DNA of 64,000 nt from assembly GCA_000004985.1 (NCBI GenBank), contig GG738881.1. One strand, given 5' to 3'. A program made the translations under genes and the position numbers. Under the pieces are notes generated by a model. It was not told where the DNA came from and ran no database searches. It saw only the letters and a list, made by a program, of their open reading frames with translations. This document shows positions 283-62,248 of this stretch, piece after piece; positions within the stretch are counted from its first letter, which is position 1, and each line of letters starts with the position of its first letter. Source of the stretch: Naegleria gruberi (lineage: Eukaryota).

Positions 283-2811
283 TCATTTCAAATAGCAAGC
301 ATCAAGATAGGTTGTACAAATTCGTTTCTGAAACAATTCTTCACTGAATTCACAGCAAAATCCACTTTTCATGGCAATTTCTTCTTTCATTTCAACTAGT
401 GGCGAAAGTAATTGTTTTAGAAGGGCACATATTCCACATTCGTTTCGTTTCAGTGCTTCCAGAACCATTTCCAGATCCATAGTGATGCTAGCTTGATGAG
501 TGATAAAGAATGAACATGAGAGTCCATTTCGTATAGCTTCTAAAATACAGAGATTGTCCTGGATTAGGTCATTTGAGGCGAAATAAATCGAATCTGCCTT
601 ATTTCTAATGGCTGCAAGAACGACATCCCTATCATTTCGCATTTCAACTGATAGAAACTTTAACAAGTCACCTCTCAAACTAACAACTATCAAGGCAATT
701 TCTTTACAATTTCTCACCCTTTCGGATGCTAATTCAATGACAGTTGGATCGGTCATGACAGCCAATTTCATTATTTCCAAATCATCTTTCAATATGGAGC
801 ATGTATGCTTCAAAGGAATGATAGATTGCTTAACAGCTTCCAAAATAAATTCCCTGTCATTCTTGAATTTGCGTTTCAAATCGTCTGGAATGGAGAAGAA
901 ATTGGTTTTCAAACCCGCCAATATAATTTCCTTGTCTGATCTTAAATTTTCATTAAGGAAATGGAATGACAACACTTCTGGATCGTTTTTGACTGATTCT
1001 AATACAATTTGTCTGTCTTGTTGTAATTTTGGAGAGGCAAATTCAAGGGAGCATCCACGATTTCTGACAGCTGTCAAGACTATTTCTCTATCTTGAACCA
1101 AATCTTCACACACAAATTCCAGTGCATCTCCCTCACTTTCCACAGCTTTCAAAACAACCTCTCTATCATTCCAAAAATCAGGGAAATATTCCAAATAATA
1201 TCCATTATACGAAACTGTTTCCAATGCAAAATCTCTATCCTCAATCAACATGGTTTCAATTTCACTGAAAATCTCAATCGGACATTCCTTAATTGCTTCC
1301 AACATGAACGATCGACTATTCCTCAAAAATAATGAAGCATCTTCCAGACATTGAGGATACAACCTTAATATTTTTAACATGAAAATTCTGTCATTCTTTT
1401 GTTTCATTGTAATGAGATGAAAGAATTGATAATTCGATTCGACTATCTGATATACGAAATCATTGTCTGTTTCCCAGGATTTGTTCCAAATTCTGGAAAT
1501 GAGTTGTTTGGAATTGAATGGTGAACTGTCAATTAGACAACTGATAATTTTGAAAATTTGTAAAACTAAATCTTGGTGTTGTTTCACATTGGTTTCGTCT
1601 AATAAATTATTGATGCATGAAAATAAAGTTGCTGAAAGCCCAGAGTTTGCTAATTTCGCTCCTTCTGCATGGGAAACAACCTTCAAAGTATGTGAAATTA
1701 TTTCTGTGAGGATTGACTTGTCATTTTTCAAATCTTTCGAAAGCCATTCCAAAATTTCGAATAACTTATTAAGCAATGATATTGCCGATTGTTCATTTGT
1801 AATTCTATTACATTCCAATCCGTTTTGTCTAATAGATTCAATAACAATCTCAATATCATTCACACATTCGTCCAATCTAAGAACAATCGAATAAGCTCCT
1901 CGTTTCACACATGTCAATGCCATCTTTCTCCATGAATAATTTTCATTACAATTATTGGCTATCTGCTTCATAGCTAACAAGATAATTTCTCTATCCTTAC
2001 TAAATTGAGAATCAATTACATATTCCATTACTCTTCCATTTTCTCTCACTGCATCCATTACAAAATTTCTATCACGACATAATTTCTCCTTTACCAATTT
2101 AAAAACTGTTGCATTATTCGAAAGGGCTTGAAGGGCAACTTGTCGATCGTATTGATAGTGATTTGAGAGAAGAGGTAAAATCAGTCCATTGTTTCGAACA
2201 CATTCGAATATAAACTCTCTATTCTTCATCAATTCCTTATTTACAAAACTAATAGCCTTTTCATTATTCTTGATAGATTCCAAAACAACATTTCGATCAT
2301 CATTGAAATTCTTCAACTCCTTCAATGCTAATCCATCCTTTCGTACAATTTGCAAGACGAAACTCTTCTTATGAATTTGATAAAGATTTCTCAAGGTTGC
2401 AACTGTTTGCCACGAATCAGGTTTACAAATTCTGAAAACTTTCTCCACAATTTCAAAATCATTTTCCAATAATTGTGGATGAATATTCTCCCACAATCGA
2501 TCTGCATCATTATTCGAATGTTTGTTCCGATCATGGAAATCATCAAGGAATTGCATGATATATTGTTTGTCCTTCGAGTATTCGATCGGAATGAAGTTTA
2601 GAATAGTAAATCGATTGATCAACCATTTGTATTTTCCCTTGCTTTGATTTTCGAATCGTTTCTTCAAATTCGAATACAAATAATGATCATTGTGATGATG
2701 CTGACTGAGAAAATCATAAAGGATGAGAACTACCAAATCATGATTGCATTGGTGCATTGTATTTGAACTTGGGAGTGATGCAAATACACTTTCTAATATT
2801 TTATTCGACAT
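283..2811 (-). CDS. DUF4116 tandem-repeat protein, 842 aa
   Basis: Single 842-aa ORF with real ATG at 2811. About 12 tandem copies of a ~30-aa repeat (DREIVLxAVxxNGxxLEFAS / NDREFILEAVKQ...), which is the DUF4116 signature. Confidence 0.65.
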   Translation of the reverse strand: MSNKILESVFASLPSSNTMHQCNHDLVVLILYDFLSQHHHNDHYLYSNLKKRFENQSKGKYKWLINRFTILNFIPIEYSKDKQYIMQFLDDFHDRNKHSNNDADRLWENIHPQLLENDFEIVEKVFRICKPDSWQTVATLRNLYQIHKKSFVLQIVRKDGLALKELKNFNDDRNVVLESIKNNEKAISFVNKELMKNREFIFECVRNNGLILPLLSNHYQYDRQVALQALSNNATVFKLVKEKLCRDRNFVMDAVRENGRVMEYVIDSQFSKDREIILLAMKQIANNCNENYSWRKMALTCVKRGAYSIVLRLDECVNDIEIVIESIRQNGLECNRITNEQSAISLLNKLFEILEWLSKDLKNDKSILTEIISHTLKVVSHAEGAKLANSGLSATLFSCINNLLDETNVKQHQDLVLQIFKIISCLIDSSPFNSKQLISRIWNKSWETDNDFVYQIVESNYQFFHLITMKQKNDRIFMLKILRLYPQCLEDASLFLRNSRSFMLEAIKECPIEIFSEIETMLIEDRDFALETVSYNGYYLEYFPDFWNDREVVLKAVESEGDALEFVCEDLVQDREIVLTAVRNRGCSLEFASPKLQQDRQIVLESVKNDPEVLSFHFLNENLRSDKEIILAGLKTNFFSIPDDLKRKFKNDREFILEAVKQSIIPLKHTCSILKDDLEIMKLAVMTDPTVIELASERVRNCKEIALIVVSLRGDLLKFLSVEMRNDRDVVLAAIRNKADSIYFASNDLIQDNLCILEAIRNGLSCSFFITHQASITMDLEMVLEALKRNECGICALLKQLLSPLVEMKEEIAMKSGFCCEFSEELFQKRICTTYLDACYLK

Positions 2812-2881: not shown

Positions 2882-5800
2882 TTATTCCAAAATCTTGAAT
2901 TGGAAACTATAATCCACAGGACTAAACTTGATATGGACATTGGCATAGGCCATTGTGAGTGATAAATCTTTTCTAATTTCTGCATCCCTTGGCAGCAAGT
3001 TAATCACCCAATTCATAACAGTTTCCTTATTATCTCCAAATAATCCTAAATGAGTTGCGAATATTGAAGGCAAAACAAGAACCTTAGTTTGTGGATTGAA
3101 ATTTGAATCATGAAGGAGAACGCCAGTTGCTTGTTGCCTCAATTGAGTTTTAACAAGCTCTGCATTATTGGGATAATAAATTCGAATAGGTGGTGAGGAG
3201 AATGAGCAATTACTGATAGCCAAACAATTCAATGGATCCTTTTGATAGACATCCAAAAGTAGTTTGTGTTTCTCTGTATTGGAAATGTTTCTTGAACTTG
3301 TCAATAGACATTGAATATCATCCAAAGAGAGTGGAATATTTCCAACACAATAAATTGGTTCCTTCATAAATCTTCTACGACTTGAAGTGTTGAGCATTGG
3401 ATAGAATCCTCCACGAATAAAACCATGCAACAACATGACGTGGTACAAGTTGATTAAAAAGACGGTAATCAAGTGTTTTTTGGTTTTCAAATGATCTAAA
3501 TCAATAGATTCCAACTTGTAGGTCAATTGGGTAAATTGTTCAAGTTTTTCCTCTTGATCTGCTAAAATAATAAATTCCTTTCCGAGTTTCAATTGTTTTC
3601 CCCATCCCATTCGTTCTTGACCATCTCCAGTTGTTTGTGTAATCCAATCAGAGGCTCTATAAATTTCCACAATCTTTTCCAATAACAGAACAGTCAATTC
3701 TACTGCTTGTTGAGCAGATAGAGTAGAAAGTGAGAGAATGTTGGAGTGAGTTTCAGAGAGGACTGATGTTGTTGATGGTGATTGTTCAACAACAGCAAAT
3801 ACATCATCTTCAAATAATTTGTCAGGTGTTTGTGGAATGCTAGTGGAAGCTGAAAGTGAATTGTCTGACGTGTCAACTGGTGAAGTAACAACTGGTAGAT
3901 CGATGGCTGTTTGTGGTGGACTTCCTGATGAGGTACTGGCAGCATCTTCATCATCTTCCTCAATTGGAATGGCCTCAACTCTGGTTGAATTGAAAACAGA
4001 CATGGAACGATAGTGAGCCGATTTCCCTTCAAACATGTTTGCTCCCTCATCTTGTTCAACTTCTTCAATGTACTGAGTTTCAACTCCCTCGACAACTGAA
4101 TCTAGTGGTTTGTTGAGCATGACACTCAATCCTCTTGTCTTTCTGAATTGAATTTCAGAATCACGTCTCTTTCTGAATTCTTCTTGTTGTTTCTTCAACT
4201 CCAATTGCACCTTGAACATTTGATCTAATTGTTCCCAATTCAATGTTTGCATATAATCGACAGCAATTTGAAGAGTGACCAGAGAATAACCCATAGGTCC
4301 CATCATGAGAGATTCGTGAACGAAATCTTCTAAAATCTTCAAATGACAATACAAATCTGGAATGGCTGCCTTGATCATGACAAAGATGAAAATTGGCATC
4401 AATGCATCAGCAGAAACTTCCTTTGGTTTTCCATAGTAATTTTTCACACAATCCACAATGGCCTTTGAGGTATTCATCAAAATTTTCATTTTACCATCAA
4501 TTAAACTATTGCTAGTTGAAATTTGAGAAAGAGTCTGAATGGCAAGGGCGTAATTTTCATCAGCTGTCTTGCCATTTCCTTCCAAACAATATTCATCTGC
4601 AATTTCCAAGTGTCTTGGTGTACAATCCTTCAATTCCGCATACTTTTGATTGACGAATGATGATTTCTCTGCTAGCTCTCTCCTGTACAATTCAAAAACG
4701 ATTGGGAAAATCTTATCGAAAAAGACATAGTCTACACATTGAGCAAAGAGTGGCTCCATCTCGTTCGGAACCACCTTCAAATTAACGTTATAATTCACAG
4801 CAGGTGTGATAATAATCTTTTGAACTTGTCTTGACATGACTTTGTACATTTCATCAAAGAATGTTGCAATCAGTGATTTGGCTCTTGAAGTAGCCACAAT
4901 CTTCTCCTCAGATGTTAACTTGTCAAAATATTCCAAAGAATAAGCTTGTAAGAACATGTCTGACTGTTGTGTAAGAACTCTATTAAAGAGACTGCCAGGA
5001 TTCTGACATTTGCTGAACAAGTGTCTGAAAATAATTTGTTCCTGTTCATCAACACTTTGACATTTGGCAATATCTGAATAAAAATCAGATTCAGAACCTT
5101 GCAACTCGATAATATCAGAAAACTTGATCAAAGAACTTTCCACAAATTCTTTCAAAGTTTTCAATTTTTTACCCATCACTGATTCAAATTCCAAAATATC
5201 AGATGAATAGTCGATGGCATCGCTGTCCTTTGCAAATGTTAAATAATAGACCATCTCCTTCTTGATAGCTCTATGCTCGAAAATTTCCTTGTGATCAGTG
5301 CACAGACATGGGAATGCCTTATTGATATCGATGGCAGCACAGGAAACAGGTTTCTTCAGAACTTCAGACAAGATTCGAGAAATTTCACGGAAACTAGCTT
5401 TTGTACCATGAGCTACAAAGTTCTTGATCATTTGTTCCGAGTCAACCTTGATTGTTTTCATCAGGTGAAGAATAAAATCAATGACATCATCTCCATCACA
5501 CCATTCCAATCTTTCATTCAGAGTGTCTATGGTAGAAGAGGTTGGAAGGGACATTGAGGAATAGGTTTGAAGTTCAGAGCCAGACAAGGTTGCTAGAGTT
5601 TGATACAACCAACCAAATTCTATAAATGTATAAGCTACAGGGCACTTTCTCGATAAATAAATGGAAACTTGGGTGAGGAAATCCTGACATATTCTCTTCG
5701 TTGCAGAATCGTACAACAAAAAGATGTGTTTCAGTTTGGTAGATCTGGCTGCATTGTCCATAATCTTCTTAAAAGCATCCAAATCAAACCACTTATTAAG

Positions 5801-7284
5801 CAGATATTTGGCCTTGATAAAGAAGATTAATTTCTCACTTTGCATGACTGCATCACTGGCATATTCGACGAATTTCTCATTCAGGATGTGTTTGGTTTTA
5901 CTCTCTACATAGTCCTCTCCCTCCAGATCCATCACAGATCCAGAACGAGAAGCTCTGAAAGGAACATTAATCATGCTGGAATTGGCAAGAATGTCTTCTG
6001 TTCTACGTCTTCTCTGATCTTCTGAAATTTGAGATCTCAAATTGACCTCAACTGTTTTCTTTTCCTTCTCATAGTCAAATATGATATATTGAGCCGTTTT
6101 GAATGGATAGTCTGGAATTTCCTTCTTTGAAAAGATGATATTCTTTGAAATGAAATTCATATCATGGAGGGCATGTAAGAGTTTCGATTGGATAAAGTGA
6201 ATAGAACCAATCATACAAATGCATGGATTGTGATCTTGGAATGTTTCCAATTCTCTCTCGATAAAGTTGTCAAAAATAGTGGCTGCAGAACCTTTCAGTT
6301 CAAGTAAATCTGAAAAGACAGTGGCTGCTAAACCTTCATCATAAATTGTCGAGTAGACACTGTGTAAGGCATCACATTCCCACTTTCCTAATCCCTTCAA
6401 GTTCATTAATCTATTCATGGAAACATCTCGATCAACTACCTTGTACTCCACTGGAACGTTGGTCTTTTTAGAGAACTTTTTAATGACATCTAAAATGGTT
6501 AAGGATTCGGGACCTGACATGACATAGGTGTGCATCTTTCTATCATTGGAATTTTTGGATTTGTCTTGTTTTTGAATATTAGAATTGACTTGGAAGAGAA
6601 TGTTCATAACGGTGGTACAAATGGCAAGACCAACATCACGAGCATCGACCCATGAAACTCTCTTCTTGATAGTATCCTCTTTTTCCTTCAAATCTCCAAA
6701 TGGGAAATAGAATGTTCTTGTTTTTTCATCATAGAACAAAAGAAAATCTTGCATAGTTCCATTATATCTGAATATCGTACATGAATTTCCGAAATATGAT
6801 TTAACAGTTTGTTCACATTGCAAATGATCATCAAACATTTGTGGAAGAATGACATCCTGTTCATCGAGTCCACCACTCACCACTGGAAAATATTTTGAAC
6901 ACAAAATGAATGAATCAATACTCAATTGGAGTGAGAAATTAATGGCTTGATTCATATCTTCTAGGATACGTTCGCCATCCATTGGCACGTGAACAATGGC
7001 TGCAATGTGATATTGACGTGTAGTGATTTGTTCCACCAATGAAATGGTTTCAAAATTACGAAATCCTCCCTCCAAACAAATGACTTGAGCTCCATAACTT
7101 TTCAATAAATTTTCCTTTAAATTTCCATTGTGAATGGCTGAATTCTTTCTTGATGATGATGAATTGTTTTGTTGTTGAGTTTTTAATGTTCTGGAAGGAT
7201 AATAAATAGCAATGACACGAATCTTTCTCAATAGAAGTGATTTTACAACTTCAATACCAACATTGGATGTTGCATTTGTCACAA
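2882..7284 (-). CDS. PH + VPS9 protein, exon 3: NmrA-like NAD(P)-binding region, VPS9 domain, DUF547; about 1706 aa in total
   Basis: Acceptor TTAAATACAG|TT restores the frame as ...AVAV-V-VTNATSNVGIEVVKSLL.... The ORF-finder 'M' at 7282 is a GTG, so this ORF has no ATG of its own. VPS9 motif ADALMPIFIFVMIKAAIPDLYCHLKILEDFV. The C-terminus is DUF547-like (LINLYHVMLLHGFI). Intron 2 is 7285-7411 (127 nt). Confidence 0.6.
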
Positions 7285-7411
7285 CTGTATTTAAATTTCA
7301 TTAATTTTCATCAAATTTAAATTCATATCCAATTTAAATCAATTTTAGTAAATTCACATTCAAATATATTAATAATAAAATTAACAAATTAAATAGAAAA
7401 ATAAAACTCAC

Positions 7412-7664
7412 CAACAGCAACACTCTTCTTCACTGCAGTAGATGATTTCATTTCCTGTTGTTGTTGTGTAGGTCCAAATGGTGAAGAACTTGTCATGGGA
7501 TTTTGACCACCTGCTCTGGTTCGTGTCCTCATTCTCGAACGAACGTGTTGAGTGGCAGCACGTTTCAATTTTTGTGCCCAATCCTCTCTCTCATCATCTG
7601 TATCTTCGGAACACAATTGGAATGTGTAGGATCTCTCGCTAAACACTTTATCCTTGCTATATGA
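7412..7664 (-). CDS. PH + VPS9 protein, exon 2: PH C-terminal helix and Q-rich linker
   Basis: Acceptor AAACAG|TCATAT continues the PH domain in frame (SYSKDKVFSERSYTFQLCSEDTDDEREDWAQKLKRA). Exon ends GTTG|GTGAGT, phase 1. Intron 1 is 7665-8011 (347 nt). Confidence 0.6.
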
Positions 7665-8011
7665 CTGTTTTTCATCATGATTTTTACATGATTTTCATCA
7701 ATTCATTAAATTCACATTGAAATAGTTGATGTGTGTGTGAATTTTTTGTGTTTGTTCAAATCAGAACAGTACAATACAGTAATCATAACATTATGGAGTA
7801 ATGCATACCATATTAAAATCCGTTCGAGTAAGGGGCGCACAAATTGTTGAATTTTGCAATTTTCAACAACATTCATCAAAATTGTTGCATTGCAAAACGG
7901 GCCATTCATCAATTCATTAACATCAACATCATCATATGAATATAATAGCATGAATAATAACAATAATAATTCAATTATTATTATTATAATTTAAATCAAA
8001 TAACAACAAAC

Positions 8012-8476
8012 CTTTTCACACTTGACATGAAACATTCTCCTATTCTTCTCATCCAAAACAATACTTCCATTCTGTAATTGCAACACGCCAATAACTTTGG
8101 ATTGTTCGGGTAGACCAGATGTTGAAGATGATGATGAATCCGAAGAAACTTTCTTGTATATTAAAATGTCATCAATTAGAACGAAGAGTCGTTTCTTCCA
8201 GGATTTCCATTTCATTCCCTGTTTCATCAGGTATCCACTCTTCACAATACAATGCTGATTCTGTGAAGAGGATGAGGAAGGAGATGAAGCACTTTGCGAG
8301 ATTGATGGCAAATCTCCATGTGAATTTAATCCATATTTGGCGAGGACGAATTGAAGTTCTGTTGTTGAGGAGGATGAAGATTTAGTTGTTGCTTTTCTTC
8401 TTGGAGTAATTCCACCATTGCCTCCTCCTGATGATGATGAACCTCCCAAGTGATGATGTTCTGGGAGGGATGTCAT
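8012..8476 (-). CDS. PH + VPS9 (Rab5-GEF-like) protein, exon 1: N-terminal Ser-rich region and start of PH domain
   Basis: First real ATG at 8476 (MTSLPEHHH); the ORF-finder start at 8494 is a TTG. PH-domain sequence IVKSGYLMKQGMKWKSWKKRLFVLIDDILIYKK...FHVKCEK. Exon ends AAG|GTTTGT, phase 0. Confidence 0.6.
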
Positions 8477-9100
8477 TTTTTTTTTGATTTTCAACGAAGG
8501 TTGACGTGTTGTGTGAGGATGTTAGATTTGTTGTGGAATGATTTTGGGTTGGACTGTTGAGGCGACAACCACGAATCAAATAAGTTTGTAACAGAATGTT
8601 TGAAAGATTAGATTTTTCTTGATTTATCAAAGGAGAGAAACAAACTTGAAAAATACACACTTTGTGTTAGAGGAATTTTTATTACTCATCAAGTGACTTG
8701 TATCCACAATATTAATAATATTACACACCTTTTCTACATTGATTGAAACACTGTCGACAACATTGAGAACATCTTGTTTGTATTTTCCTCAGAGAATAAA
8801 CAGGATGATTAGAAATATAACATGACTGGCCATTAAATTACTACTTTAATTTTATACTTTAGGAATTGATATTGTATCAGTCAATTTGTGTTGCAATCTG
8901 ATCTAATCAAAATTAGGACAATCACTTTCTGGTCTGTCTAGTAAATTGATCCATGTGCAACTCATAGCCAAGGTTAATTGCAAGACAGTGTTTGGTCCAT
9001 TGTGTAATTCCATCCGACTTTTTGTAATAAAACTTCCTAATGGTCCTGTGTGGCTATCTTTCTTACAATGTAAAAATTACGGAATTTAAAATTCAAAAAA

Positions 9101-9586
9101 ATGTCTCTTCTCAAATCCATTACCGAACCTCTCAGTAACGCTTTCGCTACTCTCTCTCCACTTCAACAGAAGGCATCATTGGGTGTATTATTGGGATCTG
9201 CTCTTTATTTAGGAAGAAAATATTTCAAGGGACCATATGTTTCTTCACAATTATTGCAAAGTGATTTGAGTGGACAAGTTGTATTGGTAACAGGTGCCTC
9301 AAAGGGTGGAATTGGTTATGAGACTGTCAAGAGTTTGTATCAATTGGGAGCAATTGTTGTGATGGCTGTGAGAAATGTTGAAAGAGGTGAAGTGGAAAAG
9401 AAGGAATTAGTGGAATTGTGTGGTGGAAAGAAGGTTGGAAAATTGATTGTAATGAAATTGGATTTGGAAGATTTGGAATCTGTTAGAGAGTTTTCACGTC
9501 AATTTTTGAAGGATTTCACTCGATTGGACATTCTTGTCAATAATGCAGGTCTTGCCCAAGGTCCAGGTGTTTCCAAACAACAAATT
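9101..9586 (+). CDS. Short-chain dehydrogenase/reductase, retinol-dehydrogenase-like, exon 1
   Basis: ATG at 9101. N-terminal membrane anchor, then Rossmann motif VVLVTGASKGGIG and NNAG. Donor ATT|GTAAGT. Confidence 0.7.
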
Positions 9587-9631
9587 GTAAGTAGTACCAT
9601 CATTTATTTTCGTGTTAATGAAACATGTCAG

Positions 9632-9947
9632 GAACTCCATTTTGCAGTGAATCATCTAGGCCACTTCTTATTGGTTCGCTTCTTGAAAGATCTCATCCAA
9701 GAGACTAGTGTCAAGTATTCTAAACAATGTAAGGTTATCAATGTTTCAAGTGAGGCTCATTATAGAGTCATAACAGAAAATGACATCCTCGATGCTGACA
9801 AATTGGTCAATCAAGATGGTTCTAATCTTCCAATGTTATTTGCTTATGGTCATTCCAAGTTTTGTAATGTTATCTTTACCAAATCATTGGCTAGATATTT
9901 TAAACAAGATCCAAAGGCAAATGTTGGTTGTTACTCTCTCCATCCTG
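9632..9947 (+). CDS. SDR, exon 2
   Basis: Acceptor CATGTCAG|GAACTC gives ELHFAVNHLGHFLL, the SDR substrate-binding segment. The 45-nt intron 9587-9631 keeps the frame and has no stop, so the ORF-finder read through it. Donor CCTG|GTATGT, phase 1. Confidence 0.6.
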
Positions 9948-10002
9948 GTATGTTTTTTAATACTTTTAAATTGTTTACAAACATATTTGAATATTACAAA
10001 AG

Positions 10003-10271
10003 GTGTTGTCTCTACCAATGTATTCAGACATTCCCCAACAATTGTTCGTGGTATCTTGTCAATGCTTAGTTTGTACTTTTTGAAAACTCCAGAATCTGGA
10101 GCTCAAACTCAAATCTTCTTAGCACTTGAGAAGAATGAAAAACTCTCCAATGGAGGTTACTACAAGGATTGTTCCGCACGTGAGGTAAGACCAGTGGCCA
10201 ACAGTGAAAATGTTCAAGACAGATTGTGGACTTTGAGTGAGAATTTGTGTAAAGATTTTGCCTCTCTCTAA
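10003..10271 (+). CDS. SDR, exon 3
   Basis: Acceptor ACAAAAG|GTGTTG gives HPG-VVSTNVFRHSP, the typical RDH motif HPGvVxTnl.Rh. Stop TAA at 10269-10271. Confidence 0.65.
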
Positions 10272-21733: not shown

Positions 21734-22864
21734 ATGCCATCATTCAATCAGGCCATAAATTTACCATCAGCAACTCGGACATCACTTCTCACGTTAACAA
21801 AACGAACACTTATTGGAATTGACATCCTAGTACTTGTTGTTCCTTCAATAGTTTTTGCAATTTGGTCCTCAATTTTATTATACGATACTATCAAGATTGA
21901 TAATTCTCTATTGATTAAAAATTCAAAGAATTATTCGGATCCATTTTCAGTTATTATTGATGAAAATAATAATTCATCAAGTATTTTTAATTCTACAGCT
22001 GTTTTTGCTAATCAAGACACTGGCAGTTATGTTCCATTGATTTTTCAATGTTTGACATTTTCGATTTTGTTTGGATTGACTATAGCTGATTGGTTGAATG
22101 TTTTGATTGTGAGTTTTGGAGGTGAAATTTGTGAAAGATTTGCATTGTGGAGATGGAAACAGAAAAAGATAAAGGAAAATCCATCACTAGTATTTTCAGA
22201 AGAGACAAATGAGAGGGCAGAGATGGAGGATGCTGCAACAGATGCCAACATTCCACCAATTAATGAACATTGGATTGATGAGGATGATACCTGTGAAATG
22301 GCTCAAACTACTTGTTTGGCTCATGGTGGTTTCATTATTGTGAAATGGATCATTATGGGAGGTATCATTTTGGGTCTCTTTTCTTGGTTTACCTATGAAT
22401 TATTGACGACCAATAATAGATTGAAAGGTGGCAAGAGTATTCTCTCTGGACATGATAACAATACCATAATTGGAAACCCTGCAGTTGGTTCACTTGATTC
22501 AACCTCTGCCTATTGGATCAATTCTCAATTGGCAACACCACTCAACACCACCACCAACACAACCATGGATGCTTGTGCTACCTTATTTTTCACACCAGTT
22601 GGAACCAAAAGTGGCTCTTCCTTTCTAATGCAACGTTCCAAAATCTCTTCCTTTGGAGATTCTGTTTTCATTTACATGTTGGTGAGATGGTTAATCTTTG
22701 GTTTGTCTCTCCTCATTTCAATTTCTGTTAGTATCCTTGTTGCTTGCTTTGGGTGTTGCACCTGTTTCTCTGAGAAGAATAACAAGAAACGAAAATCAAA
22801 TAGAATTGGAGAAAATGTAATCTATCGACCTCTTTCCACTCTATCCGATGAAGAAGACGATTAA
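21734..22864 (+). CDS. Hypothetical polytopic membrane protein, about 376 aa
   Basis: First ATG at 21734 (MPSFNQ); the ORF-finder start is a TTG. About 4 predicted TM helices and an N-glycosylation-rich loop. No recognisable domain. Confidence 0.45.
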   Translation: MPSFNQAINLPSATRTSLLTLTKRTLIGIDILVLVVPSIVFAIWSSILLYDTIKIDNSLLIKNSKNYSDPFSVIIDENNNSSSIFNSTAVFANQDTGSYVPLIFQCLTFSILFGLTIADWLNVLIVSFGGEICERFALWRWKQKKIKENPSLVFSEETNERAEMEDAATDANIPPINEHWIDEDDTCEMAQTTCLAHGGFIIVKWIIMGGIILGLFSWFTYELLTTNNRLKGGKSILSGHDNNTIIGNPAVGSLDSTSAYWINSQLATPLNTTTNTTMDACATLFFTPVGTKSGSSFLMQRSKISSFGDSVFIYMLVRWLIFGLSLLISISVSILVACFGCCTCFSEKNNKKRKSNRIGENVIYRPLSTLSDEEDD

Positions 22865-24524: not shown

Positions 24525-25266
24525 TGAGGTATTTGACTATGAAACAGTTGTTTTAATTGCAGCTGGTATTGGTGCTACACCATATGCATCTTTGTTGAAA
24601 CATTTTAATTATACGTTGGATCTTGAAAAGAGAGGAGGAAAGCCATTGAAGATTAAGAAATGTTTCTTCTACTTTATTAATAGAGATCACGGAAGTTGGG
24701 AATGGTTTTCTAACTTGTTGAATGAAATGGAAGACCATCACCCTGAATTTTTCGAGCTCAATACATACATGACTGGTAAATTGAAGGCAGAAGAAATTAA
24801 AAAGCTCTATTTCGGAAGTTCTGAATATCAACAAGCTACTGGTCACAAACAAACTGCTGATGTTCTTTTGAGAGCCATGTATGACTATACACCTGTTAGT
24901 TCTGATGAGTTGGAACTCCATGCCAATGATATCATTTCTTTGAAGGAACAAGACGAATCTGGATGGTGGGAAGGAACCAATCTCACTACCAATGAATCTG
25001 GTTTATTCCCAAGCAATTACGTTATTCACATTGATGCACTCACCAAGTTGAGAGAAAATAAGAATCGTCACTATGGTAGACCAGATTGGGAAAGAGATTT
25101 GGCTTCTGTTAGAAATTATGCAGAAAAGGCTCATACTCGTAAGGGAAGAGCTAAGGTTGGTGTCTTTGTTTGTGGTCCTCCAGCATTGTCAAAGGATGTC
25201 TATTCGTACTCTTTATCTATGAGTAGTCCTACTGTTCAATTCGTTTATCACAAGGAAAACTTTTAA
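24525..25266 (+). CDS. NADPH oxidase, exon 4: NADPH-binding domain with an embedded SH3 domain
   Basis: Acceptor AATGTAATAG|T gives D-EVFDYETVVLIAAGIGATPYASLLKHF, matching NOX2 [27 protein letters not shown]. An in-frame SH3 domain follows (ALYDYTP...GWWEG...GLFPSNYV). Then the NOX C-terminus HYGRPDWER...GVFVCGPPALSK...FVYHKENF. Confidence 0.7.
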
Positions 25267-25859: not shown

Positions 25860-27034
25860 GAAATCATGAAGCTAGTCTCTACTTGATGAGTTTACCATTT
25901 GGTGGATTTGTGACTGATAAAATTTATTTTATGGGAAATTGTGGATTTGTTCAATTCAAGAAGAAGTTTTCAAATGGTAGAATGACCAGTATGAGAATTG
26001 GAGGTTGGAGTGGAATTTATAAGGATAATGATTTTTGGAAGGATAGTGCAAGATTTTTACTTCCAAAACAAGAAAAGGGACTCGCTCAGGAAGAAGATAC
26101 AAACCTAGGAACTACTCTGTTCGATGAACAACATGTACCATTCTCTGAGAATGCAAAGAGAAGTGTTTATCATGTGAGATTTTTCGAATTTTGGAAAATA
26201 ATGAATATGAAACTATGTTTGAAAGCTAAAGAAGAAAGTCAACCTCTTGATATTTTCCTTTCGCATGATTGGCCAACTGGAGTGACTAGACATGGTGATT
26301 TGACAAATATTAGACGTTTTAAGGATCATGTAATGAAGGAAATTGAGGAATCAGATCACAAACTTGGAAATCCTTGGGGAGAGAAATTATTGACCGAATT
26401 AGAGCCAAAGTTTTGGTTTGCTGCCCACATGCATTGTAAATTCTCCTCCGTTGTTACACATACAGAGACAGTTTCTCAATCTAGCACTTTGAAGAAGAAT
26501 ACCAAATTCCTTGCTCTGGATAAGTGTTTACCAAAGAGAGACTTTTTACAAATGGTTGATATGGATCACTATATTGAATACGCCAACCACGATGAACTAT
26601 TGGAAAATGAAAAGGAAGGAGAATACTATTTTGATTTGGATTGGCTTGCCATCACAAAATTGTTCCATGCCTACAGATATGAAATCTCCAAATTATTGAA
26701 ACAACCAAATATTCAAAAGATTCAAAGAAATGCCGATCAACTAGACAAGAATTTCAATTATTCTCAAATTGTAGAACACGTCAACTCTACGCCTCTCCCA
26801 TTCATAAAGAGTAGAATGTATCCTCTCTTCACTTTGGAAGAAATTGAGAAGGAAAAGAATTGGATTCTCGAGAGAAGTAAGACCTATGATGATGGAAAGT
26901 TTGCCAATTTGCGTATCCCAATACCAACAAGCTATTCTTTGGGTGCTTTGAATGGTAATGTAAATGAAAGATTGCCACTTCAAATGAATCCTCAAACTGT
27001 TGAACTATTGGACTTTCTTGGATTGAATGAATAA
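25860..27034 (+). CDS. DBR1: DBR1, exon 2
   Basis: Acceptor ATATTTTAG|G gives FIGG-NHEASLYLMSLPFGG (GNHE motif). DBR1-specific C-terminal domain. Intron 25755-25859 (105 nt). Confidence 0.8.
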
Positions 27035-27260: not shown

Positions 27261-28025
27261 TTACAGTCCAGGTCCGAGTGGAACTCTGTGAATTACTGAA
27301 AAACTAGTTTCCTTATCAGGTCTGTAAATAAGACAAACTTCATTCACTCTGACAGTGACAGGTTTCCATTTAGAATTTAGTTCCTTAACCTTCTTTTCCA
27401 CAAACTTTAAAGCTTGTTGTCCAACAGTCAAGTGAGGCACAAATTCACCCTTCTCATTCTTCTTCTCATCACAATATGGAAATAGTTCTGCAATCAATGC
27501 TTGCACTTGTTGCAATTTCTTTATACTTTCCTCATCCTGATCCAACCACATAACACTCGAATTCTTGGCAAAATAATTCACTCCACTAAATGTAATATCA
27601 AACGGCTCAACACGTGCCAATTTCTCCCTAATTAATTCCTGAGCTTGTTCAAAGTATTGCTCTGGAATGAACGGAAAGAGGAAATTAATGTGTGGAGGCC
27701 ATCTTTCATAAGCTTTATCCATCACTGATCTCATCTCTTGAATAGGTTCCCATATTTCTGTTGGTGCAATAAAACAACAAGCTGTATGGAAAGCCTTTGA
27801 TGAATTATTCTTTACATCTGAAGAGGATGATGAAAATATATTTCCAAATGTTGATTCAATTTCTGTGGTTCCGTACTCCATCAAGAGTGCTTCCTTTTCC
27901 TTCTTACCATTATTCTTCTTCTTTTGATTATTATTTAAATTATTGTTATTATTATTAGCTTGTGATGGTGATGAGGCAACATGTTGAGAGGAGAATGAAA
28001 ATTGTTTAGATGTGGATGACGACAT
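27261..28025 (-). CDS. 2H-phosphoesterase (LigT / cyclic-phosphodiesterase-like) protein, about 254 aa
   Basis: Start placed at the internal Met MSSSTSKQF at 28025. The ORF-finder's 91-aa N-terminal extension lacks coding character. LigT-like layout: FIAPTE...RWPPHINFLFPF (variant first motif, H-x-N-x) and HLTVGQ (canonical H-x-T-x). Confidence 0.5.
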   Translation of the reverse strand: MSSSTSKQFSFSSQHVASSPSQANNNNNNLNNNQKKKNNGKKEKEALLMEYGTTEIESTFGNIFSSSSSDVKNNSSKAFHTACCFIAPTEIWEPIQEMRSVMDKAYERWPPHINFLFPFIPEQYFEQAQELIREKLARVEPFDITFSGVNYFAKNSSVMWLDQDEESIKKLQQVQALIAELFPYCDEKKNEKGEFVPHLTVGQQALKFVEKKVKELNSKWKPVTVRVNEVCLIYRPDKETSFSVIHRVPLGPGL

Positions 28026-28308
28026 GATTAATAATGATTCTGCAGCTAGTACTTGTCTAATTAAATTATTCGTTATTGTCTTGTTTTTAAATAATATGAA
28101 ACTCTTTGATCGGAGCAAACGCGAGTTGTAACTTTTTAAAATAAATTTTTTCATGATATCAATTTTGGAAATGCACAGTTTGATAAGCTTGAAAGTTTGA
28201 TTATCAACTTGCACCTTCACATCATTGTATAAGTGGCGTGTAATATTAACACAATACATTACAAAGATTACAATACAGATATTTTGTAAAAGTTTCACTT
28301 GTTGATTG

Positions 28309-30700: not shown

Positions 30701-30837
30701 AATGTACCATATTAATTGTTCAACTTTTTTGATGGGATTCATTACCTTACACATTAATAATTGATTTGTTTCCATTCCTCATCTAAATTCAGTAGAAAGT
30801 TCATAAAACTTTGAACTTTTTTACAAATCAAAAAAAA

Positions 30838-31995
30838 ATGAAAAACGACAAATCCAAGGAAAATGTTGATAAAAGTTCTTCGGAGGAAATGGTAATACAA
30901 AATTCTAAAGATATGACTACATTGATCGATTCTTGTCGGAAAATTCAAGAACAAAAGCAATATCATTCCATTACACAAATTGAATTTATTAATCTTGCTA
31001 CTAACAAATTAATACATCCATTCAATAATTACAATTTAAAAGGATTTAATATGAGACAAATTAATTTAGCAGATTTTCTAGTGAGAGATACAATTATTTC
31101 AGATAGTGATTTTACTGAAAGTAAATTGGAAAATATTCAATTCATTCTTTGTAAATTTAATAATAGTAATTTTAATTATGAGAATTTTGAAAATGTTACA
31201 TTTACAGATTGTATTTATGATGATAATTGTTCATTTTCAGGTGAAAAACAATTAAAAGGAATAGCTCTAAATCAAAATAGTATTAAATTTGAAATTTTGG
31301 ATCAAAAAAATAATTGGATTATTAATTATTTAGATCTCAATAATAATGTTGGATATAAACTTGCTAAATTTATTGGTAAATTGAATAATTTAATAACACT
31401 AAATATCACTTCTTGTAATATTGGAGAAGAAGGTTCAAAGGAAATTGCTAAATTAAGTAATTTAACAGAACTTAAAATTGATAATAACAATATTGGATCT
31501 GAAGGTGTAAAATATATTGCTCAATTGAGTAATTTAACATCACTTAATGTATATAATAATAACATTGGAACAGAAGGTGCAAAAGAAATTGGTAAATTAC
31601 TAAATTTAAAAACTCTTAATATTGATAATAATTATATTGGAGATGAAGGAGCACAAGAAATTTCCAAATTAATCAATTTAACATCATTAAATATGTATAA
31701 AAATAGTATCGGATATGAGGGTGCAAAAGCAATTTCTAAATTGGGTAATTTAAGAGCTCTTACTATATATAATAATTATATTGGAGAAGAAGGTGCAAAA
31801 GAAATTAGTAAATTGACTAACTTAACCTCGCTCAATATCAGTAATAATAATATTGGAGATGAAGGCGCAAAAGAAATTACTAAATTAAGTAATTTAACAG
31901 GACTTAAAATTGATAATAATAATATTGGATATGAAGCTGCTAAAGAAATCAGGCAATTGTTGAAGAATTTAAAATATTTGGGAAACATCAATTAA
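30838..31995 (+). CDS. Leucine-rich-repeat protein, RNI/ribonuclease-inhibitor type, about 385 aa
   Basis: At least 11 tandem 24-aa repeats LxNLTxLNIxNNNIGDEGAKEIxK. First ATG at 30838. Confidence 0.75.
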   Translation: MKNDKSKENVDKSSSEEMVIQNSKDMTTLIDSCRKIQEQKQYHSITQIEFINLATNKLIHPFNNYNLKGFNMRQINLADFLVRDTIISDSDFTESKLENIQFILCKFNNSNFNYENFENVTFTDCIYDDNCSFSGEKQLKGIALNQNSIKFEILDQKNNWIINYLDLNNNVGYKLAKFIGKLNNLITLNITSCNIGEEGSKEIAKLSNLTELKIDNNNIGSEGVKYIAQLSNLTSLNVYNNNIGTEGAKEIGKLLNLKTLNIDNNYIGDEGAQEISKLINLTSLNMYKNSIGYEGAKAISKLGNLRALTIYNNYIGEEGAKEISKLTNLTSLNISNNNIGDEGAKEITKLSNLTGLKIDNNNIGYEAAKEIRQLLKNLKYLGNIN

Positions 31996-32116: not shown

Positions 32117-33094
32117 TTAGAATTTATCATCAACAAGTGGAGTAATATTCTTGTAAGGTTGATTCTTGAAAAATTCGAGAATGAAATCGTCTGTATATCT
32201 CAAACTGAAATGGGTCAAAATGAATCTAGTTTGTGGATGTTTCTCAATGTAAGGTTTGATGTGATTCCAGTGCATGTGATAAGCTCCCAAAGCTGTTTCT
32301 TCTTGTCCATTTTCTAAGAAGGTACATTCCACAACAATGACTGGAAATTCCAATAAGAATGGATTCATTTCAAAGACACGATAAGTAGTATCTCCCATAA
32401 TTGCAATTCTTGGTTCTAGAATGATATCAGAAATTTCATCACCTTTTTCTTTTCTCAATTTGGCAATTTCAGCTCCCTTGAGCTCTGAATATTCTTTTTT
32501 CAGTTTTTTCTTTCTTTCGTAAATGGCATACCCATTACAAGGCACACTATGATCACACTTTACAACTTTGGCCACATAATTATCCTTTCCACCAATTTTC
32601 TCAATCAAATCTCCAGGTTCCACACCAATGATATCAATTGGTTTTCTTTCCTGAACACTTTCTCTTGGCAATGTCTTTCCAGCATTCAATTCCTGACAAC
32701 TATGCAAAAAGTTCTCTACAAATTCCACCTTTCCCTTTGGTACATAAACTCTATTAGGATTTGATCTATTTACAAAAGCAGGTTGACAAGCAGCCAAATA
32801 AAACGTATGATCCGCATGTGTATGAGTAATCAGAAAAGTATTAGGATTTTGACTCATATACTTTTTATCAATAAATCCCATATCGATATTACATGAGAGT
32901 TGGGGAATTTGAAAGTAGGTAGCCTCCGCACTCTTTGAATGCCCAACGAAAGATAGGGCTGGATAGGAAGATGATTTTTTATGTTCCGATGATGATGATG
33001 ATGATTGTGGTGGTGGAGATGATGATGATGATTGATCGGAAGCATCTTCTGATGAACCTGTTGGTAATTCATAAATATTCGGAATGACTTTCAT
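32117..33094 (-). CDS. Metallo-beta-lactamase-fold ribonuclease, short-form tRNase Z (ELAC1-like), about 325 aa
   Basis: HxHxDH motif ITHTHADH, the C-terminal tRNase Z motif THFSLRY, and interior His/Asp ligands. ATG at 33094. Confidence 0.6.
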   Translation of the reverse strand: MKVIPNIYELPTGSSEDASDQSSSSSPPPQSSSSSSEHKKSSSYPALSFVGHSKSAEATYFQIPQLSCNIDMGFIDKKYMSQNPNTFLITHTHADHTFYLAACQPAFVNRSNPNRVYVPKGKVEFVENFLHSCQELNAGKTLPRESVQERKPIDIIGVEPGDLIEKIGGKDNYVAKVVKCDHSVPCNGYAIYERKKKLKKEYSELKGAEIAKLRKEKGDEISDIILEPRIAIMGDTTYRVFEMNPFLLEFPVIVVECTFLENGQEETALGAYHMHWNHIKPYIEKHPQTRFILTHFSLRYTDDFILEFFKNQPYKNITPLVDDKF

Positions 33095-33400
33095 GATGAA
33101 AAGTACTTTGTTTGATTTTTTTTGATTTTGAAAAATTAATTTAATATTTTTGAAATTGAAGAAAAGCAATTTTGAAATTGAGGTTGAAATTGAGGTTAAA
33201 GTTCAGATTTGAAAATTATAAATTAAATTTGTTTCATGTGAGTAAGATGATGAAATTTAAGGTTCATGAAATTAAAATACCAATATGGAAGGTTGACAGG
33301 ATGCATTGTAATAGTTTCGAATACAAATTGAAACGAAAAAGAAACCTTTCCAGCTCATTAGCTTCATATTTGGCAACAAACAAAATATCACTCCAAAAAA

Positions 33401-43668: not shown

Positions 43669-43925
43669 TCATAGTAGTGAGCAGTAAAATCAATTTGTAC
43701 AATTGTAAAGTGGACTATTTAGCAAGAGGGTGCACAATCTACTCATATTACAACAGTGTTGAATGTATGCGGCTTGTTGTTGGATTTTCAATCTGAAAGT
43801 TCTTTCATATCTGATTTTCCATGGCGGATACTTCTTAACAGTTATTACACCCGCATGGATTTGTGGAAATTGGTATTTAAATCTTCCACCAAACACAATT
43901 GTATCATCAAAACAAAATCAAAAAA

Positions 43926-45900: not shown

Positions 45901-46154
45901 TTTTTTAATAATATTAATTTGTTATTTATTAATTATTTAAATAGTTTTTTGCAACCAATTCCATCATTCCGATCATCAAAACAACAAATTTAATATTGAA
46001 AATAAATCCTGGTGATGATGGAACATTTCAAATTTCTACCATTCCAAAGAATATTTTATTCCATAAGGCTTGTTCCTCTTCTGGTCTGCTTGAACATCAC
46101 AACAAGGCTAAAAAAAATTCGGAATCGAAACTCTTCATCAGCAAGAAGAAAAAA

Positions 46155-54876: not shown

Positions 54877-55452
54877 GGTTTCGAATACTGCTTTATTTTT
54901 TACCGTTTCGCATAATGTTAATCTTGTGAAAAGAGACAAGTGCCAGCAAATAACATTATGAAATTTACAATAAAGGAAGAAAACATGAAGACAGAACCTC
55001 TTCAGTATCATCACTGATGAAGTAGCCGAAAGTCTCTAATTTCTAATATTGGAATTTTCATTAATATTCCTCTAGTGCAATAAATATTTCCAAATCCAAA
55101 TCTATTTGATGAGAAATTTGCGAAGAAACTCTTTCCGTCTCCATCATGCTTTGTGAAGAAACCAATTCATCATCACTTCTTTCCATCATGATGTATTTAT
55201 TATTATTAAACAATAATAAAAAACATTCGGGTGATGTTGATGAACGAAAAATATATTTCCCTCTCTCGCATTCTTTAACCCTAACACCACATATGAACCA
55301 TATTATAGAATGATAATATTCAAACAATCATACGCTCAGGGTGAATAATTTTCCTTCCCAAATCTTCCTCAGTTAGTATTGTATTTTTATTTTTTTTTAA
55401 AATTGAAAATCGTAACGGCTATTTGATGAACTTCAAACCAAATTAAAAAGAA

Positions 55453-62198: not shown

Positions 62199-62248
62199 NN
62201 NNNNNNNNNNNNNNNNNNNNNNNNNNNNNNNNNNNNNNNNNNNNNNNN
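62199..62248. other. Assembly gap (50 N)
   Basis: Run of exactly 50 N characters. Confidence 0.95.

What the first reader, a model, noticed from the sequence alone, without database searches (positions are those of the whole stretch)
2882..8476. ORF-finder 'PH-domain gene' and 'VPS9 gene' are one spliced gene (PH + NmrA-like + VPS9 + DUF547, about 1706 aa)
Three observations fit a single transcript on the minus strand, with exons 8476-8012, 7664-7412 and 7284-2882 giving a PH-domain Rab-GEF:
1. The 1466-aa VPS9 ORF begins with GTG and has no ATG; its first in-frame ATG lies about 100 codons downstream. Its N-terminal residues NATSNVGIEVV are the middle of an NmrA-type GxxGxxG motif, so it is not a real protein start.
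2. Upstream, the PH-domain ORF ends at a perfect donor GTT G|GTGAGT. 127 nt later the acceptor TTAAATACAG|TT restores the VPS9 frame exactly.
3. A second intron of 347 nt splits the PH domain itself. HVKCEK|SYSKDKVFSERSYTFQLCSEDTDDEREDWAQKL regenerates a complete PH C-terminal helix.
Basis: seen in the sequence. Interest (0 to 1): 0.6.

Follow-up and report, generated by a model that had tools for sequence, protein, structure and literature searches.

The report
Known spliced Naegleria Rab-GEF gene
The two neighbouring reading frames are exons of one three-exon Naegleria gruberi gene for a 1706-residue PH / Rossmann-like / VPS9 / DUF547 protein, and this exact gene model and its domain layout are already public, so the finding is correct but ordinary.

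Summary
On the minus strand, exons 8476-8012, 7664-7412 and 7284-2882 join through canonical GT..AG introns of 347 and 127 nt. The result is a 5121-nt reading frame of 1706 codons plus stop.

The joined protein is identical over all 1706 residues to XP_002674940.1 / D2VLS7, NAEGRDRAFT_80473, of Naegleria gruberi. Herman et al. 2018 (Traffic) already list it as "PH, Rossman fold, Vps9, DUF547".

Independent support comes from three other heterolobosean genomes. N. lovaniensis, an unnamed Naegleria contig and an environmental contig all have both introns at the same codon and phase. The residues across each junction are conserved, and the introns differ in length; the one pair compared (with N. 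lovaniensis) shows no sequence similarity above chance. Splicing completes the PH domain: Pfam coverage rises from 2-74 to 2-104 of 105.

Small additions:
- The "NmrA" call is below the Pfam threshold. A model of it does have an atypical-SDR fold, but its Gly motif is degenerate (TNATSNVG).
- There appear to be two tandem copies of this module.
- The VPS9 domain keeps three of the four Rabex-5 residues remembered as key (from memory).
- The family was seen only in Heterolobosea and unnamed environmental contigs.

No transcript data could be reached. Function as a Rab5-family exchange factor is inferred, not shown.

The parts
8012..8476 (-). Exon 1 (codons 1-155). It holds the start ATG at 8476, a Ser/Gly-rich N-terminus and the N-terminal two thirds of the PH domain (from residue 78, nt 8245).
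   Evidence: Pfam PH covers profile 2-74/105 for this exon alone. The N-terminus resembles the N. lovaniensis start, MSLQDNHHH.. against MTSLPEHHH...
7665..8011 (-). Intron 1: 347 nt, GTTTGT..AAACAG, phase 0, 26% GC.
   Evidence: The same position and phase occur in N. lovaniensis (303 nt), Naegleria sp. contig L004 (478 nt) and environmental contig L003 (66 nt). Its similarity to the N. lovaniensis intron is no better than shuffled sequence.
7412..7664 (-). Exon 2 (codons 156-239 plus the first base of codon 240). It holds the PH C-terminal strand and helix (to residue 192, nt 7554), an RMRTRTR basic stretch and a linker.
   Evidence: The joined PH match covers profile 2-104/105. Residues across the junction, HVKCEK|SYSKDK, are conserved in four sequences.
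7285..7411 (-). Intron 2: 127 nt, GTGAGT..ATACAG, phase 1, 14% GC.
   Evidence: The same position and phase occur in N. lovaniensis (201 nt), L004 (151 nt) and L003 (apparently 34 nt). Only one usable acceptor exists in the window.
2882..7284 (-). Exon 3 (last two bases of codon 240, codons 241-1706, stop at 2884-2882).
   Evidence: One uninterrupted frame of 1466 codons in DNA of 34% GC.
6233..7284 (-). Rossmann / NmrA-like module 1 (residues about 239-590), with the degenerate Gly loop TNATSNVG.
   Evidence: Pfam NmrA scores 24.1 bits, below the gathering score of 27. The AlphaFold model has pLDDT 71.9 and pTM 0.75. Foldseek top hits are triphenylmethane reductase, SimC7, QOR2, eugenol synthase, NDUFA9 and GalE, with E 5e-12 and TM 0.73.
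4973..6232 (-). Module 2 (residues about 591-1010), a probable second and more degenerate copy of the NmrA-like module.
   Evidence: hhalign matches residues 446-590 to residues 829-963 with probability 95% and E 1.7e-8. Two environmental relatives have weak, sub-threshold Pfam NmrA hits that by my coordinate mapping fall in this part. No confident structure model was obtained.
4220..4783 (-). Helical bundle plus VPS9 catalytic domain (residues 1074-1261; Pfam VPS9 is 1153-1254, nt 4241-4546).
   Evidence: Pfam VPS9 scores 75.5 bits. The alignment to Rabex-5 structures 1TXU, 2OT3, 4N3Z and 4Q9U covers the bundle and VPS9, with E 7e-5 for the single sequence and 1.4e-7 for the profile. D1199, P1203 and Y1239 align with Rabex-5 D313, P317 and Y354.
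3128..3466 (-). DUF547 domain (residues 1513-1625), after an acidic, Ser-rich linker.
   Evidence: Pfam DUF547 scores 55.8 bits. The VPS9 + DUF547 pairing is kept in Willaertia, Acrasis kona and several environmental relatives.

Best explanation
This is one nuclear protein-coding gene of Naegleria gruberi, NAEGRDRAFT_80473. It is transcribed from the minus strand and spliced from three exons through two canonical GT-AG introns.

The product has 1706 residues. In order, it carries:
- a PH domain;
- two tandem, degenerate NmrA-like (atypical short-chain dehydrogenase fold) modules;
- a helical bundle plus VPS9 domain;
- an acidic linker;
- a DUF547 domain.

What is shown: the exon structure, the domain content, and conservation within Heterolobosea.

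What is inferred: the PH domain brings the protein to a phosphoinositide-bearing endocytic membrane. There the VPS9 domain, using its conserved Asp finger (D1199), speeds GDP release from a Rab5-family GTPase (Rab5/21/22). The Rossmann-like modules have lost the first two glycines of the dinucleotide loop, so they more likely act as regulatory or scaffold parts than as an enzyme. The role of DUF547 is unknown.
For: Gene structure:
- Coordinates, splice sites and the open joined frame were read directly.
- The joined protein is identical to the public model XP_002674940.1 / D2VLS7.
- Both introns sit at the same codon and phase in N. lovaniensis, in Naegleria sp. contig L004 and in environmental contig L003.
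- Exon flanks are 73-78% identical to N. lovaniensis, against at most 65% for shuffles. The introns are at shuffle level.
- Orthologue proteins run through both junctions without gaps.
- The PH profile is completed only by splicing.
- Exon 3 has no ATG for 100 codons.

Domains:
- Pfam VPS9 75.5 bits, DUF547 55.8 bits, PH 35.3 bits.
- Alignment to Rabex-5 keeps D313, P317 and Y354.
- The Rossmann-like module has an SDR/NmrA-like fold.
- An internal repeat is detected.

Published listing: the same architecture is in PMC6032885 Table S1.

PH signature: K85 and K94-K95-R96 fit the K-Xn-(K/R)-X-R phosphoinositide signature. K85, K94 and R96 are invariant in four sequences. The signature itself is from my own knowledge.
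Against: - No RNA evidence was reachable. The only near-identical Logan contig (L002) covers exon 3 and the next gene, so it says nothing about splicing.
- The orthologue proteins are themselves gene predictions.
- The position matching Rabex-5 T357 is Val here.
- NmrA is below the Pfam threshold, and no NmrA relative was found by sequence in PDB.
- Only one of five AlphaFold models was confident.
- The Rab substrate, lipid binding and any nucleotide binding are untested.
Confidence: 0.9

Rival explanations
1. There are two separate genes: a small PH-domain protein (8476 to about 7389) and an independent VPS9/DUF547 protein that starts inside the 1466-codon frame.
For: An ORF finder reports them as separate frames. 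N. lovaniensis is annotated with this locus cut into two genes, although at a different place.
Against: - There is no ATG for the first 100 codons of the long frame, yet those codons are conserved.
- The sub-threshold NmrA match starts at residue 239, one residue before the exon 2/3 junction.
- Orthologues in Willaertia and N. lovaniensis carry the PH and the Rossmann-like/VPS9 parts in one protein.
- The 127-nt spacer is 14% GC with GTGAGT..CAG ends.
- The N. lovaniensis cut lies between VPS9 and DUF547. It coincides with an apparent frameshift, and the region is one frame in N. gruberi, Willaertia and L004.
Confidence: 0.02
2. It is one gene, but intron retention or alternative splice sites also produce shorter products. 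For example, a PH-only protein would end at the stop inside a retained intron 1 or 2.
For: Other frame-keeping GT..AG pairs exist, for example the acceptor at 7653. Intron retention is common in protists (own knowledge).
Against: Nothing in the sequence calls for it. The alternative pairs delete conserved residues. The public model uses the same sites as proposed.
Confidence: 0.08
3. The gene model is right, but the protein is not an active exchange factor. It would be a scaffold or Rab-binding pseudo-GEF whose main activity lies in the Rossmann-like or DUF547 parts.
For: The position of Rabex-5 T357 is Val. Herman et al. could not place the protein in any Vps9 subfamily and list its identity as 'Unknown'. 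About 1100 of the 1706 residues lie in parts with no known function.
Against: The Asp finger, Pro and Tyr of the catalytic surface are kept. The VPS9 score is strong at 75.5 bits. In the alignments read here the VPS9 region is conserved in N. lovaniensis, Willaertia and the environmental relative P0007, and the Acrasis kona protein also has a Pfam VPS9 match.
Confidence: 0.15

Closest known systems
NAEGRDRAFT_80473 (XP_002674940.1, EFC42196.1, UniProt D2VLS7), listed as NgV9DCPA in Herman et al. 2018, Traffic 19:546
   Same: It is identical over all 1706 residues. The published domain string is the same: 'PH, Rossman fold, Vps9, DUF547'.
   Different: Nothing differs. It is the same gene. The public name is only 'hypothetical / PH domain-containing protein'.
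Rabex-5 (RABGEF1) helical bundle + VPS9 tandem, PDB 1TXU / 2OT3
   Same: The helical bundle and VPS9 domain align (E 7e-5, or 1.4e-7 with the profile). The Asp finger D313, P317 and Y354 are kept.
   Different: - There is no ubiquitin-binding zinc finger and no Rabaptin-binding coiled coil.
- T357 is Val.
- A PH domain, two Rossmann-like modules and DUF547 are added.
- Herman et al. did not place it in the Rabex5+GAPVD1 clade; its preliminary label is 'Vps9 DCP' and its identity 'Unknown'.
NmrA-like / atypical short-chain dehydrogenases (triphenylmethane reductase 2JL1, E. coli QOR2 2ZCU, eugenol synthase, complex I subunit NDUFA9)
   Same: The fold of residues 241-600 matches, with Foldseek E 5e-12 and TM 0.71-0.73 normalised to the target. 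There is also a weak Pfam NmrA match.
   Different: - Sequence identity is only 12-15%.
- The Pfam score is below threshold.
- The Gly loop reads TNATSNVG instead of GxxGxxG.
- The module is fused inside a trafficking protein and duplicated.
Cytohesin / GRP1-type PH domains
   Same: These are the best PDB sequence matches for residues 79-194. The basic K..KxR signature in strands 1-2 is present.
   Different: Here the PH domain is joined to a Rab GEF (VPS9), not an Arf GEF (Sec7). Lipid specificity is untested.
Other DUF547 fusion proteins (plant class IV glutaredoxins with DEP + DUF547; Entamoeba PTEN with DUF547)
   Same: They share the DUF547 domain. Like this protein, they are multidomain signalling or membrane-linked proteins (PMC13621322; PMC9122207).
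   Different: The partner domains differ. None of these has a known DUF547 function.

Membership tests
Spliceosomal GT-AG intron (both introns) | GT at the 5' end and AG at the 3' end, and removal gives an open frame | tested here: met
   GTTTGT..CAG (347 nt) and GTGAGT..CAG (127 nt). The joined frame is open for 1706 codons.
Spliceosomal GT-AG intron (both introns) | Position and phase shared with orthologous genes, while the intron sequence is not conserved | tested here: met
   The same codon and phase are used in N. lovaniensis, L004 and L003. Intron lengths are 347/303/478/66 nt and 127/201/151/34 nt. Intron identity to N. lovaniensis is at shuffle level.
Spliceosomal GT-AG intron (both introns) | Spliced junctions seen in RNA | not testable with these tools
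   No transcript collection could be queried. Logan contig L002 is unspliced exon 3 plus the next gene.
VPS9-domain Rab5-family exchange factor | VPS9 domain above the Pfam gathering score | tested here: met
   PF02204 scores 75.5 bits against 27, over residues 1153-1254.
VPS9-domain Rab5-family exchange factor | Helical bundle directly before the VPS9 domain, as in Rabex-5 | tested here: met
   The alignment to 1TXU/2OT3 chain positions 73-254 covers query residues 1074-1260.
VPS9-domain Rab5-family exchange factor | Catalytic surface residues (Rabex-5 D313, P317, Y354, T357; residue list from my own knowledge) | tested here: inconclusive
   D1199, P1203 and Y1239 are kept. The T357 position is V1242, with Thr one residue later.
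VPS9-domain Rab5-family exchange factor | Nucleotide exchange on Rab5/21/22 | not testable with these tools
   This needs a biochemical assay.
PH domain | Full-length match above the Pfam gathering score | tested here: met
   PF00169 scores 35.3 bits against 25.1, covering profile 2-104/105, but only after intron 1 is removed.
PH domain | Phosphoinositide-binding signature K-Xn-(K/R)-X-R in strands 1-2 (own knowledge) | tested here: met
   K85 and K94-K95-R96 fit the signature. K85, K94 and R96 are invariant in four sequences. Lipid binding itself is untested.
NmrA-like / atypical SDR | Pfam NmrA at or above the gathering score | tested here: not met
   24.1 bits against 27. No NmrA-like chain was found by sequence or profile in PDB.
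NmrA-like / atypical SDR | Rossmann-type SDR fold with a C-terminal substrate sub-domain | tested here: met
   The model has pLDDT 71.9. Foldseek hits 2JL1, 5L3Z, 2ZCU and 3E48 at E about 5e-12 and TM 0.73. Caveat: one good model out of five, from an alignment of seven sequences.
NmrA-like / atypical SDR | Gly-rich dinucleotide loop GxxGxxG | tested here: not met
   The loop reads TNATSNVG. The same degenerate form is kept in orthologues: TNATSNIG, TNATTTLG, TNATSSIG, THATSNIG.
DUF547 | Pfam match above the gathering score | tested here: met
   PF04784 scores 55.8 bits against 27, over residues 1513-1625.
Vps9 DCP (VPS9D1) subfamily | Phylogenetic placement within the clade | not tested
   Herman et al. 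give 'Vps9 DCP' only as a preliminary label and list the actual identity as 'Unknown'. I built no tree.

The most novel reading that the evidence does not exclude
The two degenerate NmrA-like modules could work as a sensor. NmrA and HSCARG are NAD(P)-sensing regulators rather than enzymes (own knowledge). A sensor here would tie Rab5-family activation on endosomes to the redox or nutrient state of the amoeba, with DUF547 as a constant partner of VPS9. That would be a Rab-GEF control mode seen so far only in Heterolobosea. My evidence does not exclude this, but the loss of two loop glycines argues against ordinary dinucleotide binding.
Probability: 0.08. Interest if true: 0.45.

Novelty: already known. 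Interest (0 to 1): 0.1.

Why it matters
It matters little beyond housekeeping. It shows that the first-stage reader can rebuild a correct eukaryotic gene model from raw sequence. It also shows that prokaryote-style ORF lists split this gene.

The by-products are modest:
- The N. lovaniensis annotation (C9374_007249 and C9374_007248) probably cuts the orthologue in two at an apparent frameshift.
- The single 'Rossman fold' listed in the literature looks like two tandem degenerate NmrA-like modules.
- The PH / Rossmann-like / VPS9 / DUF547 layout was seen only in Heterolobosea among 1.84 billion representative proteins.

The protein remains uncharacterised. Anyone studying endocytosis in Naegleria, including the pathogen N. 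fowleri, could treat it as a lineage-restricted candidate Rab5 regulator.

Tried and rejected
The Willaertia protein was not on record. The only near-identical Logan contig (L002, ERR1078381) is colinear with the genome across the 3' end and the next gene, so it says nothing about splicing.

2. Word-indexed protein searches. They returned very few hits and missed known orthologues. I therefore draw no conclusion from absences there. The exhaustive search is the basis for the narrow distribution, and it covers residues 241-1140 only.

3. AlphaFold of residues 241-1140 with three sequences failed (pLDDT 42). I did not use it for fold search, so the fold of module 2 rests on hhalign alone.

4. 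Chance test. Counting frame-keeping GT..AG pairs showed they are common, 21 and 8. I rejected 'frame restoration' as evidence in itself.

5. Literature search by accession found no main-text mention. The only record is the supplementary table of PMC6032885.

6. I looked for N. gruberi intron statistics in open papers and found none usable.

7. I considered whether the downstream DUF4116 gene (283-2811) could belong to the same product. I rejected this because a stop codon and a 70-nt spacer lie between them.

Full report
**Check of the observation**

I read 6900-9300 on the minus strand and rebuilt the proposed coding sequence by script. Every coordinate holds.
- The ATG is at 8476.
- Exon 1 ends at 8012 with AAG|GTTTGT (phase 0).
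- Intron 1 is 8011-7665, 347 nt, 26% GC, ending AAACAG.
- Exon 2 is 7664-7412. It begins TCA TAT AGC AAG (SYSK) and ends GTT G|GTGAGT (phase 1).
- Intron 2 is 7411-7285, 127 nt, 14% GC, ending ATACAG.
- Exon 3 begins at 7284 with TT GTG ACA AAT and runs to the stop at 2884-2882.

The joined sequence is 5121 nt, which is 1706 codons plus a stop, with no internal stop. The 1466-codon frame listed by the ORF finder starts at GTG. Its first ATG is codon 101, and the frame is closed by stops just upstream of 7284.

**Is it more than chance?**

A GT..AG pair that keeps the frame open is not rare here. An enumeration gives 21 such pairs for the first junction and 8 for the second. Frame restoration alone therefore proves little.

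The evidence that counts is comparative. The joined protein finds orthologues in Naegleria lovaniensis (P0001, 61% identity) and Willaertia magna (P0002, 46% identity over 97% of the query). Both run through the two junctions without any insertion or deletion:
- HVKCEK|SYSKDKVFSERSYTFQ against HVKCEKSFSKDKIYSERSYTFQ and YVKCEKSYSSDNVYNERVYIFQ;
- SVAV|V|VTNATSNVG against IVAIVVTNATSNIG and LAAVVVTNATTTLG.

These proteins are predictions too, so I went to the DNA.
- **N. lovaniensis locus L001.** Intron 1 is 303 nt (GTTTGT..CAG) after the same AAG codon. Intron 2 is 201 nt (G|GTAGGT..CAG|TT) in the same split codon.
- **Logan contig L004** (12.4 kb, run SRR29240419), from an unnamed Naegleria. 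The two introns are 478 and 151 nt, at the same sites and phases.
- **Environmental JGI contig L003.** Intron 1 is 66 nt, in frame and free of stops. A prokaryotic gene caller read through it, and it shows up as a 22-residue insert exactly at the junction. Intron 2 appears to be 34 nt, with the same phase.

Exon flanks are 73-78% identical between N. gruberi and N. lovaniensis, while shuffled controls reach at most 65%. The introns are no better than shuffles.

Finally, Pfam PH covers profile positions 2-74 of 105 (28.6 bits) in exon 1 alone, and 2-104 (35.3 bits) after splicing.

**Identity of the gene**

An exact-sequence look-up shows that the joined 1706-residue protein is already in the public record. 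It is EFC42196.1 / XP_002674940.1 / UniProt D2VLS7, 'hypothetical protein NAEGRDRAFT_80473', Naegleria gruberi.

The domain layout is also published. Table S1 of Herman, Ali, Field and Dacks (Traffic 2018, PMC6032885) lists 'N. gruberi 80473, NgV9DCPA'. It gives the domain structure 'PH, Rossman fold, Vps9, DUF547', the preliminary annotation 'Vps9 DCP' and the actual identity 'Unknown'. No open paper mentions the accession in its main text.

**Anatomy of the protein**

Pfam gives four matches:

| Domain | Residues | Score (bits) | Gathering score (bits) |
|---|---|---|---|
| PH | 78-192 | 35.3 | 25.1 |
| NmrA | 239-529 | 24.1 | 27 |
| VPS9 | 1153-1254 | 75.5 | 27 |
| DUF547 | 1513-1625 | 55.8 | 27 |

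*PH domain.* It is most like the cytohesin/GRP1 PH domains in PDB. It carries K85 and K94-K95-R96; K85, K94 and R96 are invariant in four sequences. This fits the K-Xn-(K/R)-X-R phosphoinositide signature (own knowledge).

*VPS9 region.* It aligns with the Rabex-5 helical bundle plus VPS9 structures 1TXU, 2OT3, 4N3Z and 4Q9U over residues 1074-1260. The E-value is 7e-5 for the single sequence and 1.4e-7 with a three-sequence profile. In that alignment SADALMP matches SADDFLP, and GYSLV matches GYYFT. D1199, P1203 and Y1239 therefore stand at Rabex-5 D313, P317 and Y354, while the T357 position is V1242. The residue list is from my own knowledge of the Rabex-5 work.

*Rossmann-like part.* The sequence evidence is weak. 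Pfam is below threshold, and no NmrA-like chain was found in PDB by sequence or profile. A first AlphaFold run on residues 241-1140 with three sequences failed (pLDDT 42). A second run on residues 241-600 with seven sequences gave one usable model (pLDDT 71.9, pTM 0.75; the other four were about 50).

Foldseek against PDB put atypical and extended short-chain dehydrogenases on top. These were triphenylmethane reductase 2JL1, SimC7, E. coli QOR2, SAV0421, eugenol synthase, complex I NDUFA9 and UDP-galactose epimerases. E-values were down to 5e-12, TM 0.71-0.73 normalised to the target, and identity 12-15%.

So the fold label is reasonable, but family membership by sequence is not established. 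The Gly loop reads TNATSNVG. The same degenerate form is kept in all relatives: TNATSNIG, TNATTTLG, TNATSSIG and THATSNIG. This argues for a conserved role that is not ordinary dinucleotide binding.

A profile-profile comparison shows that residues 446-590 match residues 829-963 (probability 95%, E 1.7e-8). Two environmental relatives also give weak, sub-threshold NmrA matches that by my coordinate mapping fall in that second region. The 770 residues between the PH domain and the helical bundle are therefore probably two tandem copies of this module.

**Distribution**

I ran an exhaustive HMMER search of residues 241-1140 against 1.84 billion representative proteins. It found only nine proteins at E <= 0.001:
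- N. lovaniensis;
- Willaertia;
- Acrasis kona KAL0486117.1;
- six unnamed proteins from environmental or run-assembly contigs.

Of these nine, Willaertia (P0002), the Acrasis protein (P0009) and three of the unnamed proteins (P0007, P0010, P0012) carry both VPS9 and DUF547. P0015, found by the word-indexed search, does too. As far as these data go, the architecture is confined to Heterolobosea. I did not test exhaustively whether VPS9 + DUF547 occurs elsewhere.

**How it most likely works**

Shown: one gene, three exons, four kinds of domain, conserved across Heterolobosea.

Inferred from what is established for VPS9 proteins (Rabex-5, yeast Vps9, plant VPS9a): the helical bundle plus VPS9 tandem inserts its Asp finger into the nucleotide pocket of a Rab5-family GTPase and speeds GDP release.

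Inferred from the PH signature: a phosphoinositide-bearing membrane recruits or activates the protein.

The Rossmann-like pair and DUF547 have no assigned role. I lean to a regulatory or scaffold role for the former because of the degenerate loop. I put about 0.95 on the gene structure and about 0.7 on exchange-factor activity.

**Rivals**

- *Two separate genes.* This is very unlikely. The first 100 codons of the long frame have no ATG yet are conserved. The sub-threshold NmrA match starts one residue before the junction, and the orthologues are fused.
- *Alternative isoforms through intron retention.* This cannot be excluded without RNA.
- *A catalytically dead VPS9 domain.* This is possible (T357 is Val, and the subfamily is unknown), but it is not favoured.

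**Verdict**

However, the gene model and its domain layout are already in GenBank, UniProt and the literature. Interest is low.

Noticed in passing
window 9101-10271 (+): The divergent neighbour is a short-chain dehydrogenase (Pfam adh_short, 78 bits). It also looks spliced. ORFs 9101-10069 and 9780-10271 overlap in different frames. A 45-nt in-frame stretch, 9587-9631 (GTAAGT..GTCAG), and a 55-nt stretch, 9948-10002 (G|GTATGT..AAAAG|GT, phase 1), look like introns. Removing the second restores an 'HPG VVSTNV' motif.
   Followed up: partly
L001:10850-10880 (N. lovaniensis PYSW02000002.1): The N. lovaniensis orthologue is annotated as two genes 72 nt apart: C9374_007249 (PH+NmrA+VPS9, 1405 aa) and C9374_007248 (DUF547, 435 aa). 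The reading frame shifts from frame 1 to frame 3 inside conserved sequence. The same region is one open frame in N. gruberi, Willaertia and contig L004. This is probably an assembly indel or an annotation artefact.
   Followed up: partly
L004:6537-6766 (Logan SRR29240419 contig): An unnamed Naegleria has an extra 230-nt GTAAGT..ACAG intron (phase 2) after 'SFPCL', at about residue 901 of the N. gruberi protein. It is absent in N. gruberi and N. lovaniensis, so an intron was gained or lost within the genus.
   Followed up: partly
L003:2399-2464 and 2691-2724 (JGI metagenome 3300002220): An environmental relative has very short introns at the two conserved sites. One is 66 nt, in frame and stop-free, and was read through by the prokaryotic gene caller to give a 22-residue insert in P0005. 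The other is apparently only 34 nt.
   Followed up: partly
window 283-2811 (-) and spacer 2812-2881: The downstream gene encodes an 842-aa protein made of 17 DUF4116 repeats (356 bits). Its ATG lies only 70 nt after the stop codon of the VPS9 gene, so the 3' end of one gene and the promoter and 5' end of the next share a very short spacer.
   Followed up: no
window 13850-14794, 21695-22864, 24592-25266, 25883-27034, 27261-28298, 30811-31995, 32117-33169, 43899-44891, 45996-47183, 53386-55014, 60305-62287: Eleven further ORFs of 200 aa or more start at TTG or GTG rather than ATG. The VPS9 exon 3 showed the same signature, so several are probably internal or last exons of other spliced genes.
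   Followed up: no
window 13536-13607 (+): A tRNA-Met gene (anticodon CAT) is the only tRNA found in the window.
   Followed up: no
L002 (Logan ERR1078381 contig, 1616 nt): A contig from an independent sequencing run matches the 3' end of the gene and the start of the next gene. It has one amino-acid difference (S to P in 'DNSLSAS'), suggesting a second N. gruberi-like strain or a sequencing difference.
   Followed up: no
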